IMG/VR virus record: IMGVR_UViG_2711768014_000012
Source of the DNA: a virus
Lineage: Duplodnaviria; Heunggongvirae; Uroviricota; Caudoviricetes
Reading direction: 5' to 3' (one strand)
DNA length: 36,201 nucleotides
Position 1 is the stretch's first letter; each line of letters opens with the position of its first letter. The position numbers are program-made. This document shows positions 8,501 through 11,500 of the stretch, piece by piece.

Positions 8501-11500
8501 CACCTGAGCCAGCGCACCGGCTGCAGCATGTTGCGTAATACCATTCCCGGAAATAGCACGACTGAGCGTCCACAGCTGCCCGGCAGTGACTCCGGCATAA
8601 TGCCCCGTCAGCGACAACTGGCGGTTAAATTCTTCCCCCTCCTTCTGACCGTCATACCAGGCTTTACCCAGACCATAGACAGCCGCGGCAATACCGCCAA
8701 TAACCCCGCCCAGCATCATGCCTTTCGGTGACATCAGTGTGTCTATCCATCCGGCACGGTTAGCCAGCGTTATTCCGGACCCCCTCAGCGCCCCTAAATT
8801 GCCGCGGGCCAGTTCACCTATCAGAACGCCTATCTCCTGGCGGGCTGCTGCACTTTTCAGACCCAGCGAATGCGTGGCTTTTCCTGCCTGCTCCATTTTG
8901 CGGATATACACTTCTGCAGCACTGCTTACCCCCAGCTGGGCAGCCTTAGCACGAAGCAACTCAGAAGATGAAAGATTCTGGCGGGTTGCCTGCTCTTTAA
9001 GCTGACGGATAAACGCCACTTTCTGTCGGGTAGCCTCTTCCTCAGCCTGTGTAAGAACACGGGTTTTCGCCGTAACCTCAGAAATCAGCGCCAGATAATC
9101 CTGCTGACCAATCCCGCCACTGTTTCTGGCCTGTCGGATCTGCTGCTGAATACGCTGTAATTCCTGCAGCCCCGCACTGGCCTGTTTCACACTGTCAATC
9201 TGACGATAAAACGCAGCAGCCGCTTTATCCTGAGCCTCCGCCAGAGCCATGGCCTGCGCCTGTTCCTCGCGCATTTTCTGGCTCAGTGCCTCCATGCGCT
9301 GGCGGGTTTTCTCCACCTCGCGGGACATGCGTTCATGAGCCTGTGCGTTCTTCTCCACCGTCTGCGCATGGACGGATGCGGCTGTTGCAGCCGAAGAAGC
9401 CGCCTGCGTTGTCTGCCGGGCGGCCTGAGTCTGACGCTCCATAAAACGCTGCATACGGGCAGAAGACCGTTCTGCATCGCTGGCTGCACCATTCAGAAGG
9501 TTTTTGATACGGGGAATTTCATTTTTAAACTCTGCCGCATCAATCCCCAAATCAATGACCAGGTTGGCTATCTGGTCCATAACGCACACCTCCGGAAATA
9601 CCTTCCCCAAGATGCATCAGTTCTTCGTCCGTTCGCTCCGGTATCCCGTTCTCTTCCGGTAAAAGGCTGAAATCAGCCACCGCAGCATCACTGCTGCCGG
9701 ACACCATTCTCACGATCAATGCCTTCAGCGAGGCAAACTGCGCATCCATCCACACATCACTGAAGCTCTGCATCCGGAAATAATCGCCCCACTGACCAAG
9801 CTCAGTGGCCGACATTTCCGACAGCATCCGCCGCCAGTCTGCCCGCCGGAACTCCCGGGCAAGCCGCATGACAAACTGCATTTCCCGCGTCAGGACTTTT
9901 CCGGCGTCAGCCCCTCATGCTCCAAATCCCCGGCATTATCAATGGCCCCCATACCGCTCAGCGACAGAACCATCTCCGCCCCCGCACCCAGGGCATCATA
10001 CGACCATGTTGTAATAACGGATGCGTAAAGCGTCTCAACATCCTGAGACTGTTCCGCATTCCACAGTGAGCGGGAAACCAGCCAGGCATTGATATCCATC
10101 CCCATCCGCAGAAAAGCAATCTGTCGTTCAGCCTCCGGCAGTTCTCCCTCCCCGGCATCAAACTTTGCCGTTCGCTGCTGAACAAACGTCAGATATTCAA
10201 TTCTCTGCAGCCCGGACAGCTCACTGAGCACCACGGACTGTTTTTCATAATTAAACGTGTCCTGTTTCAGAAACATCATGTTCTCCACCTGTAAAAAAGC
10301 CCCGAATAACCGGGGCAAATGATGAGTATCGTCCTGTTAACCTGCTGCGCTGACAGTCACCGTAGCCACTGCCACAAAATTCCCGTCAGCGGTCATGCCC
10401 ACAATGCTGACACTGCCCTGCTTCACGCCTTTCACCGTGGCCACAAGCCCGTTCAGGGTCACCGTGGCAGTCTGTGGATCTGTCGAATGCACACTGATCG
10501 CTTTGTCACTGGCTCCGTCAGGTTTTACTGTAAAGGTCAGCGTGGTGGTTGCTCCCACTTTTACACTGGCAGATGCCGGTGCCACCGTCAGCCCGGTAAC
10601 GCTCACTGTTTCAGTGCCTTCCTCTGCCAGATACGGACGCCCCACACCGCTGATTTTCACTGTGCGGGTCATCACGTCTTTTGAGGCAATGGTTTTACCC
10701 AGTGAACTCAGCCAGCCACGGAAAACATCAACAGTACCGTTGGGATATTTGATACGAAACGCGCAGACTTCACCGGAGTCGAACAACTGAACCAGTTTTT
10801 TCTGCCCGCTGTCACCCGGACGCCAGGCCAGCGTCGCCGAAGTATCACCAACGGATTTCTGCCCCTGGGTTGTCGTTTTCCAGTCTGCATCTTCATCATC
10901 GAGATAAGTGTCATCTTCTGCATCAGCGGTCATTTCGCCAGGTTGCAGATCCTTCACCATCGCAAGACGCAGCCAGTCAGTGTCCGATAAAGGGTTCGCA
11001 AACGCATCGCCCTTGCCGGTATACATCCAGAACGTCGTTCCCGCACCTTTCGTTTTTGCCAGTGGATTTGGTGTGGTCATTACCACCTCCTTAATTCGTG
11101 TACGTGATCTGGTACGTGATTTCCGCCATCGCCCAGGTGGCCATCTCATTATCACGTTGATAGTTAAAACCGAGTGGGATCAGGGTGTCGATGAGTCCGG
11201 AAAGTGCTGGTACATCATTCAAGGCCGGGAAAATGGTGCTCTCCATCCACATATCCAGCTCTGAATCCGGTGCCTGTGCCCGGATGAAGACAGCAATATG
11301 CAGAACAGCCTGCCAGTCATCTTCATCCGTCATTTTTCCGGTGTACTGAGCATCACTCAGCCACACCGCCACGGCAGGCAGTTCCTGCGCATCAACAAAT
11401 GCCGGAAGCCCGTCAAAAAACGTGGCGCTGTCTCCACACTGTTCCCGAAGGCGTGCCAGTACGACCTGGCGGATTTGTGTATGTCGGTTCATCGGGTCAG

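What the first reader, a model, noticed from the sequence alone, without database searches (positions are those of the whole stretch)
9552..10276. Programmed -1 frameshift site for the G-T tail chaperone
Near the 3' end of G the sequence G_GAA_AAG (minus strand, 9902-9896) is followed in the -1 frame by an ORF open down to 9552. Lambda uses G_GGA_AAG at the equivalent position. Here the P-site codon is GAA rather than GGA, a non-canonical heptamer that may shift at a different efficiency.
Basis: partly seen in the sequence, partly recalled or inferred. Interest (0 to 1): 0.4.

Follow-up and report, generated by a model that had tools for sequence, protein, structure and literature searches.

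The report
Known phage tail-chaperone G-T frameshift site
This is the ordinary lambda-type tail-chaperone gene pair G/T of an E. coli prophage, whose -1 frameshift site G_GAA_AAG is real and conserved, is already annotated in phages N15 and LLS, and is the commonest form in this gene family.

Summary
On the minus strand, G (10276-9890) ends CCG GAA AAG TCC TGA. The heptamer G_GAA_AAG (9902-9896) is in the right phase. The -1 frame is open only from 9914, 25 nt of overlap with G, and runs to the stop at 9554-9552.

G and T pass the curated lambda G and T family cut-offs and lie between the V-like tube gene and the tape-measure gene. The heptamer aligns exactly with lambda's G_GGA_AAG.

The interpretation (programmed -1 frameshift making a G-T fusion) is well supported by comparison:
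- A_AAG is invariant in 24 of 24 family clusters.
- Synonymous positions of the heptamer are fixed.
- The T-frame protein pattern starts at the first codon after the heptamer.
- The ATG at 9881 is not conserved and has no usable Shine-Dalgarno (ribosome-binding) sequence.

It is not new. GenBank N15 and phage LLS annotate GGAAAAG as the slippery sequence. It is the majority heptamer in the family (18 of 24 clusters), and this module sits in about a third of complete E. coli genomes.

The efficiency question stays open. In vitro, G GAA AAG shifts much less than G GGA AAG. I found no conserved stimulator.

Novelty: already known. Interest: low.

The parts
9890..10276 (-). Gene G, tail assembly chaperone (128 aa, 14.3 kDa), zero-frame product
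   Evidence: ORF. PF06894 E=1.2e-40. TIGR01674 equivalog 183.6 bits against a cut-off of 74.45. PGAP calls the 100% identical copy 'phage tail assembly chaperone G'.
9896..9902 (-). Slippery heptamer G_GAA_AAG (P-site GAA, A-site AAG)
   Evidence: Phase verified. Aligns with lambda G_GGA_AAG. Kept in 80 of 80 close relatives, in 28 of 33 species-level loci and in 18 of 24 family clusters. Annotated as the slippery sequence in N15 and LLS.
9890..9914 (-). G/T overlap: the only 25 nt in which a -1 shift can join G to T
   Evidence: The -1-frame stop TGA at 9917-9915 and the G stop at 9892-9890 bound it.
9552..9896 (-). T-frame segment (-1 frame) read after the shift; with G codons 1-127 it gives a 241-aa, 27.1-kDa G-T fusion
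   Evidence: PF06223 E=2.5e-14 and phrog_39 E=1.2e-42. TIGR01715 132.7 bits over fusion residues 132-238. The T-frame pattern [VA][LVI]xxExxF..LAREF is conserved from the first codon after the heptamer. Masses.
9879..9881 (-). ATG used by PGAP and GenBank annotators as an independent T start; probably not a real start
   Evidence: A Met at this position occurs in only 3 of 24 clusters. The only Shine-Dalgarno-like match (GGGA, -4.3 kcal/mol) abuts the ATG. Annotated as the T start.
9911..9916 (-). Shine-Dalgarno-like GAGGGG, 8-10 nt upstream of the heptamer (overlaps the -1-frame TGA); possible weak stimulator, unproven
   Evidence: Duplex with the anti-SD is -7.7 kcal/mol. That is only the 4.3 percentile of windows on this strand, and 15% of in-gene windows are as strong. 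It is not conserved in the family.
10299..10316 (-). Terminator-like hairpin plus T-run between V and G (context)
   Evidence: Equivalent terminators are annotated in the mEp460, Ayreon and N15 records.
10337..11080 (-). Major tail tube gene (lambda V-like, C-terminal Big_2 domain), upstream neighbour
   Evidence: PF16461 E=1.5e-66 and PF02368.
6515..9580 (-). Tape-measure gene (lambda H-like), downstream neighbour; its start overlaps the end of T
   Evidence: PF06791, PF09718 and PF24622. Strong Shine-Dalgarno GGAGGTG before ATG 9580 (-10.8 kcal/mol).

Best explanation
This is the tail-assembly-chaperone pair of a lambda-like (mEp460/cdtI-type) E. coli prophage.

Most ribosomes translate G to its stop at 9890 and make the 14-kDa chaperone. 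A small fraction slip back one base on G_GAA_AAG (9902-9896) and continue in the T frame to 9552. That gives a 27-kDa G-T fusion with the junction ...TPEK|VLTREMQ....

The slip is driven by tRNA-Lys. E. coli has a single species with anticodon UUU, which moves from AAG to the better-matched AAA. The P-site tRNA-Glu re-pairs from GAA to GGA, with a G.U pair at the middle position.

By analogy with lambda, the G part binds the tape measure and the T part recruits the tube protein. The low shift rate sets the G:GT ratio.

Shown here: the anatomy, the homology and the nucleotide-level conservation. Inferred: that the fusion is made, its rate, and the two-tRNA mechanism.
For: Anatomy and phase.

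Family membership and V-G-T-H gene order.

Positional homology with lambda's proven site.

Heptamer conservation. It is invariant in 80 close relatives. It is present in 28 of 33 loci from Escherichia, Shigella, Citrobacter, Proteus, Xenorhabdus, Enterobacter, Erwinia, Serratia, Kosakonia and others, while the surrounding G tail is hypervariable.

Survey of 358 loci: GGAAAAG 269, GGGAAAG 85, AGAAAAG 2, AAAAAAG 1, GGCAAAG 1. AAAG is in phase in all of them.

Synonymous positions are fixed. AAG is used 23 of 23 times against an AAA:AAG ratio of 95:42 elsewhere in G. Position-1 G occurs in 20 of 22 clusters against 43% expected, binomial p=3.7e-6, with clusters not independent. Position 1 covaries with the P-site codon: A with AAA in the Stx2 phage.

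The T-frame amino-acid pattern is conserved from the first codon after the heptamer, upstream of any start codon.

GenBank annotates GGAAAAG as the -1 slippery sequence in N15, and in LLS with a joined CDS.

A_AAG is the most shift-prone tetramer in E. coli (Sharma 2014, PMC4066793).
Against: No protein evidence exists for this locus or, as far as I could find, for this heptamer in any phage; the N15 and LLS features are annotations.

In a reconstituted E. coli system AUG GAA AAG gave mainly zero-frame product, unlike G GGA AAG (Peng 2019). A_AAG alone gives about 0.15% without a stimulator (Sharma 2014).

I found no conserved downstream structure and no convincing conserved upstream Shine-Dalgarno-like element.

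Two clusters carry A_GAA_AAG. That is hard to reconcile with P-site re-pairing.

The window has an in-frame ATG at 9881, so some independent T cannot be excluded.
Confidence: 0.87

Rival explanations
1. Same frameshift, different mechanism. Only tRNA-Lys slips on the A_AAG tetramer, either in the A site or in the P site while the next codon or the nearby stop is decoded slowly. The preceding G_GA plays no pairing role.
For: A_AAG is the only part invariant in all 24 clusters. Two clusters have A_GAA_AAG and one locus has G_GCA_AAG, where P-site re-pairing is poor. Peng 2019 treats G GAA AAG as a one-tRNA site. The zero-frame stop follows immediately in the Proteus, Providencia and Morganella types (AAG TAG/TAA), and after one codon here.
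Against: Position-1 G is kept through five different preceding codons, 20 of 22 clusters against 43% expected. It switches to A exactly where the P-site codon is AAA. That is expected only if the P-site tRNA re-pairs.
Confidence: 0.25
2. No frameshift. T is made on its own from the ATG at 9881, as GenBank and PGAP annotate it, and the heptamer is incidental.
For: An in-frame ATG exists 15 nt after the heptamer. Every record of this clade that I opened annotates T as a separate CDS (mEp460 and Ayreon; the PGAP copy in E. coli A14).
Against: Met at that position occurs in only 3 of 24 clusters. The Shine-Dalgarno-like match is weak (-4.3 kcal/mol) and has no spacer. The T-frame sequence is conserved upstream of the ATG. 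The heptamer's synonymous sites are fixed. The -1 frame is open through the heptamer in every locus. From my own knowledge (Levin et al. 1993, not read here), lambda T is made only as the G-T fusion.
Confidence: 0.06
3. The extra base comes from RNA polymerase slippage on the A4 run, not from the ribosome.
For: The site contains a short A run. Transcriptional slippage does give fusion products in some bacterial and phage genes (review PMC5009743).
Against: From my own knowledge, productive slippage needs runs of about 7 or more A or T, and here there are 4. The conserved G at the end (AAG and never AAA) and the conserved position 1 fit tRNA re-pairing rules, not polymerase slippage.
Confidence: 0.02

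Closest known systems
Phage lambda G / G-T (slip site G_GGA_AAG)
   Same: Same Pfam and TIGRFAM families for G and T. Same V-G-T-H order. The slip site is at the homologous codons, and T is in the -1 frame overlapping the end of G.
   Different: The P-site codon is GAA (Glu) instead of GGA (Gly), so -1 re-pairing has a G.U at the middle rather than the third position. G is about 33% identical. The overlap is 25 nt against 63 nt. T is shorter, lacking lambda's second GGVRYG repeat.
Phage N15 genes 14/15 (NC_001901)
   Same: Identical heptamer GGAAAAG in the same phase, annotated in GenBank as 'slippery sequence for -1 translational frameshift'. Same gene order and a terminator-like hairpin before G.
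   Different: The preceding codon is GCG rather than CCG. The zero-frame stop is 5 codons after the site rather than 1. The G protein belongs to a different (N15-type) cluster at the 70% identity level.
Escherichia phage LLS genes 11/12 (PQ299149)
   Same: GGAAAAG is annotated as the 'minus-one programmed translational frameshift site', with a joined G-T CDS.
   Different: Preceding codon GTG. G is about 35% identical.
Phages mEp460, cdtI, Ayreon, Tritos and the PGAP-annotated prophage of E. coli A14
   Same: The phage DNA is 97.8-98.3% identical (H2, H10-H14). The copy in the E. coli A14 chromosome is 100% identical. This is the same module.
   Different: Of the four phages I opened only the mEp460 and Ayreon records; they and the E. 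coli A14 copy show G and T as separate genes with no joined CDS. For cdtI and Tritos only the separate product names listed were seen. The frameshift is simply unannotated in this clade.
E. coli dnaX (A_AAA_AAG with an upstream Shine-Dalgarno-like element and a downstream stem-loop)
   Same: The same A-site event: the single tRNA-Lys leaves AAG for AAA. An upstream GAGG 10 nt from the site here resembles the dnaX spacing.
   Different: There is no conserved downstream hairpin, and the Shine-Dalgarno-like element is neither strong nor conserved. The P-site re-pairing is only near-cognate. The expected efficiency is far lower than for dnaX.

Membership tests
Lambda-type tail assembly chaperone pair G / G-T | The upstream protein belongs to the lambda G family | tested here: met
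   PF06894 E=1.2e-40. TIGR01674 equivalog 183.6 bits against a cut-off of 74.45.
Lambda-type tail assembly chaperone pair G / G-T | The downstream reading frame encodes the lambda T domain | tested here: met
   PF06223 53.9 bits against a cut-off of 25.9. TIGR01715 equivalog 132.7 bits against 77.35. phrog_39 E=1.2e-42.
Lambda-type tail assembly chaperone pair G / G-T | Located between the major tail tube gene and the tape-measure gene | tested here: met
   V-like gene at 10337-11080 and H-like gene at 6515-9580 flank the pair.
Lambda-type tail assembly chaperone pair G / G-T | T lies in the -1 frame relative to G and overlaps its 3' end | tested here: met
   25-nt overlap, 9914-9890. The same arrangement holds in all 358 related loci analysed.
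Lambda-type tail assembly chaperone pair G / G-T | A conserved slippery sequence in the overlap, in phase | tested here: met
   G_GAA_AAG at 9902-9896. Synonymous positions are fixed across the family.
Lambda-type tail assembly chaperone pair G / G-T | T has no start of its own and is made only as a fusion | tested here: inconclusive
   ATG 9881 exists, but it is unconserved (3 of 24 clusters) and lacks a spaced Shine-Dalgarno sequence. Initiation cannot be excluded from sequence alone.
Lambda-type tail assembly chaperone pair G / G-T | A G-T fusion protein is actually produced at a few percent of G | not testable with these tools
   This needs a western blot, mass spectrometry or a reporter assay. 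I found no published measurement for GGAAAAG in a phage.
Canonical X_XXY_YYZ tandem-slippage heptamer | The first three bases are identical, so the P-site tRNA keeps two or more cognate pairs in the -1 frame | tested here: not met
   The site is G_GA, not G_GG. tRNA-Glu would face GGA with a second-position G.U (sequence; the same point is made in Peng 2019).
Canonical X_XXY_YYZ tandem-slippage heptamer | The A-site codon YYZ allows cognate re-pairing on YYY | tested here: met
   A_AAG, the best bacterial tetramer (Sharma 2014), is invariant in the family.
Stimulated bacterial -1 frameshift signal (dnaX / IS3 type) | A conserved downstream hairpin or pseudoknot 5-9 nt after the site | tested here: not met
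   RNAalifold on 24 cluster representatives finds no conserved structure near the site. Individual hairpins start about 33 nt downstream, inside the LAREF..DWR coding motif.
Stimulated bacterial -1 frameshift signal (dnaX / IS3 type) | A conserved upstream Shine-Dalgarno-like element 6-17 nt before the site | tested here: inconclusive
   The window has GAGGGG (-7.7 kcal/mol), but 15% of in-gene windows are as strong. Family-wide there is only a mild skew: median rank 0.26, KS p=0.014.

The most novel reading that the evidence does not exclude
G_GAA_AAG behaves as a poorly slippery, one-tRNA site in reconstituted E. coli translation. Yet it is the majority slip site of lambda-family tail chaperones, and its position-1 G is under selection. 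If so, one of three things holds. Near-cognate P-site re-pairing (middle-position G.U by tRNA-Glu) works far better in vivo than in vitro. Or these phages run on a G-T:G ratio much lower than lambda's roughly 1:30. Or an unrecognised stimulator exists, such as the adjacent stop codon, the nascent acidic G tail or the upstream GAGG.
Probability: 0.3. Interest if true: 0.35.

Novelty: already known. Interest (0 to 1): 0.15.

Why it matters
The practical value is for annotation. In every record of this clade that I opened (mEp460, Ayreon, and the PGAP-annotated copy in E. coli A14), T is shown as a separate gene starting at an unconserved ATG. The module itself is present in about 1,846 of 5,426 complete E. 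coli genomes. The real product is almost certainly a 241-aa G-T fusion.

For recoding specialists there is one modest point. The commonest heptamer of this classic frameshift family is not lambda's textbook G_GGA_AAG. It is a form that breaks the X_XXY_YYZ rule, and its in vivo efficiency appears unmeasured.

Tried and rejected
1. Alternative slip site G_GGG_C (9914-9911) inside the overlap. It exists only in this window. Relatives have GAG GTG or GAG GCG there. Rejected.

2. Downstream stimulatory structure. Single-sequence folds show a hairpin about 33 nt downstream. RNAalifold on 24 representatives finds nothing conserved near the site. The hairpin sits in the conserved LAREF..DWR coding motif and is too far away. 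Rejected as a stimulator.

3. Upstream Shine-Dalgarno-like stimulator. It is present here but not exceptional and not conserved. Left as inconclusive.

4. Chance. The heptamer count in the window is not enriched, 8 against 5.1 expected, so the argument rests on phase, position and conservation.

5. Literature.
- Xu, Hendrix and Duda 2004 (Mol Cell) is not held.
- The one PRFect supplement held as text has no match to GGAAAAG, N15 or NC_001901.
- The main text of the Atkins 2016 review (the held part), of Sharma 2014 and of Antonov 2013 does not mention GGAAAAG.
- Full-text searches for GGAAAAG or 'G GAA AAG' gave only Peng 2019 as relevant.
- So I found no in vivo measurement for this heptamer.

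6. Transcriptional slippage. Rejected on run length (my own knowledge) and on the conserved terminal G.

Full report
**What is in the sequence.** On the minus strand an ORF runs from ATG 10276 (alternative ATG 10279) to TGA 9892-9890. It ends CTG ACG CCG GAA AAG TCC TGA. In the -1 frame the nearest upstream stop is TGA at 9917-9915. That frame is open from 9914 and overlaps G for only 25 nt. It then runs uninterrupted to the stop at 9554-9552. A shift on the heptamer gives the junction ...GLTPEK|VLTREMQFVMRLAREF... and a 241-aa, 27.1-kDa protein, against 128 aa and 14.3 kDa for G alone.

**What the genes are.** The upstream ORF matches the lambda G chaperone family: PF06894, E=1.2e-40, and TIGR01674 equivalog, 183.6 bits against a cut-off of 74.45. 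The -1 frame matches lambda T: PF06223; TIGR01715 equivalog, 132.7 bits against 77.35; phrog_39. They sit between a lambda V-like tube gene with a Big_2 domain (10337-11080) and a lambda H-like tape-measure gene (6515-9580). These lie inside a complete lambda-type late operon on the minus strand: terminase, portal, ClpP-protease/capsid fusion, Z, U, V, G, T, H, M.

**Where the module occurs.** The DNA is 97.4-98.9% identical to 17 phage records, among them mEp460, cdtI, Ayreon and Tritos. It is 100% identical to a prophage in E. coli A14. The module occurs in 1,846 of 5,426 complete E. coli genomes.

**Comparison with lambda.** I read lambda's G-T junction and aligned the two predicted fusions. 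Lambda's G_GGA_AAG and the window's G_GAA_AAG fall on homologous codons (SAGK|VF against TPEK|VL). They differ by one base.

**Is the heptamer selected?** As a bare string GGAAAAG is not rare: 8 copies in the window against 5.1 expected. The evidence is comparative.
- All 80 close IMG/VR relatives keep it.
- Among 33 loci from one-genome-per-species contigs, with G identity from 96% down to 32%, 28 have G_GAA_AAG, 4 have G_GGA_AAG and 1 has A_GAA_AAG. The genera include Proteus, Xenorhabdus, Morganella, Enterobacter, Erwinia, Serratia, Kosakonia, Citrobacter and Edwardsiella. The G tail around the site is otherwise hypervariable.
- A wider, query-biased sample of 358 loci gives GGAAAAG 269, GGGAAAG 85 (80 of them from the lambda query itself), AGAAAAG 2, AAAAAAG 1 and GGCAAAG 1.
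- In 24 clusters at 70% G identity the counts are 18, 3, 2 and 1.
- AAAG is invariant in all 24 clusters.
- Synonymous positions are fixed. The A-site Lys codon is AAG in 23 of 23 clusters, although AAA is preferred 95:42 elsewhere in the same genes.
- The base before the P-site codon is G in 20 of 22 clusters against 43% expected, kept through CCG, GCG, CTG, TTG and GTG. The binomial p is 3.7e-6, and the clusters are not phylogenetically independent.
- In the Stx2-phage type, where the P-site codon is AAA, that base is A, giving a canonical A_AAA_AAG.

This is the signature of a recoding signal, not of protein constraint.

**Is T made on its own?** The ATG at 9881 is used as the T start in the mEp460 record and by PGAP in E. 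coli A14; Ayreon's record starts T further downstream. A Met at that position is found in only 3 of 24 clusters. Its only Shine-Dalgarno-like match (GGGA, -4.3 kcal/mol) abuts the ATG with no spacer. The V and H starts score -13.4 and -10.8 kcal/mol. The T-frame pattern [VA][LVI]xxExxF..LAREF is conserved from the very first codon after the heptamer, upstream of any start codon. Independent initiation is therefore unlikely, though it cannot be excluded from sequence.

**Mechanism.** The A-site event is the classic bacterial one. E. coli's single tRNA-Lys leaves AAG for AAA, and A_AAG is the most shift-prone tetramer in E. coli (Sharma et al. 2014, PMC4066793). The P-site tRNA-Glu would re-pair from GAA to GGA with a G.U at the middle position. 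The site therefore fails the X_XXY_YYZ rule. Conservation of position 1, and its covariation with the P-site codon, argue that the P-site tRNA does re-pair (tandem slippage). The two A_GAA_AAG clusters and the one G_GCA_AAG locus argue that A_AAG alone can suffice. I put about 0.25 on the single-tRNA variant.

**Efficiency.** I found no measurement for this heptamer in vivo.
- In a reconstituted system Peng et al. 2019 (PMC6924986) used exactly AUG GAA AAG as the 'less slippery' comparison to G GGA AAG and saw mainly zero-frame product.
- Sharma et al. report about 0.15% for tetramers without a stimulator, and up to 5.6% for A_AAG with a pseudoknot.
- Lambda needs roughly 30 G per G-T (review PMC5009743).

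**Stimulators.** I looked for them and found none that is convincing. RNAalifold on 24 representatives finds no conserved structure near the site. The recurrent hairpin in single folds starts about 33 nt downstream, inside a conserved coding motif. The window has GAGGGG 8-10 nt upstream (-7.7 kcal/mol), a dnaX-like spacing. But 15% of windows within G are as strong, and the family shows only a mild skew: median rank 0.26, KS p=0.014. The zero-frame stop lies one codon after the site here and immediately after it in the Proteus-type relatives. That could slow the ribosome, but I could not test it.

**Is it known?** Yes. GenBank NC_001901 (phage N15) carries a misc_feature 'slippery sequence for -1 translational frameshift' whose bases are GGAAAAG. 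Phage LLS (PQ299149) carries 'minus-one programmed translational frameshift site GGAAAAG' with a joined G-T CDS. The conserved G-T frameshift of tailed phages is textbook material. What remains is an annotation gap in the mEp460/cdtI clade and in the PGAP genome I checked, and an unmeasured efficiency.

**Verdict.** The feature is an ordinary, already recognised member of a classic system. Interest 0.15. The most novel reading not excluded is that this majority heptamer works by an efficient near-cognate P-site re-pairing or a hidden stimulator, or that it sets a much lower G-T:G ratio than in lambda (probability about 0.3, interest if true about 0.35).

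Noticed in passing
window 782-910, 1313-1637, 2561-2725, 5152-5437, 5781-6011, 20991-21367: Six runs of N (1,513 bases in all) interrupt the window, including the tail-tip genes. ORFs listed across them contain X stretches.
   Followed up: no
window 10299-10316 (- strand): A terminator-like GC hairpin plus a T-run lies in the 60-nt gap between the tube gene V and G. Equivalent features are annotated as rho-independent terminators in mEp460, Ayreon and N15. It may lower transcription into G-T-H.
   Followed up: partly
window ~9578-9596 (- strand): T's conserved C-terminal motif GGVRYG is encoded by GGAGGTGTGCGTTATGG. The same bases form the strong Shine-Dalgarno sequence (-10.8 kcal/mol) and the ATG (9580) of the tape-measure gene, so the stretch is dual-use. 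Lambda has the same motif at its T/H junction.
   Followed up: partly
window 12757-14976 (- strand): A 739-aa ORF fuses a ClpP-type protease domain (residues 95-255) to a major capsid domain (441-736). It overlaps the portal ORF, so its true start is uncertain.
   Followed up: no
L121 (Stx2a phage LC567841), L104 (Morganella), L180, L174: There are other heptamers at the homologous site: canonical A_AAA_AAG in an Stx2 phage, A_GAA_AAG in two clusters, and a single G_GCA_AAG locus that may be a crippled site.
   Followed up: partly
database proteins P0033, P0050, P0001: Two database entries (215 and 212 aa) are in-frame G-T fusions created by deletions that remove the G tail and the slip site. 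Another (182 aa) is a G with an internal duplication. These are probably decayed prophages or assembly artefacts.
   Followed up: no
window 9911-9917 (- strand): The -1-frame stop that closes the overlap (TGA 9917-9915) is embedded in the Shine-Dalgarno-like CATGAGG(G/T/C)G, which all 80 close relatives share. Whether this is more than coincidence is unknown.
   Followed up: partly
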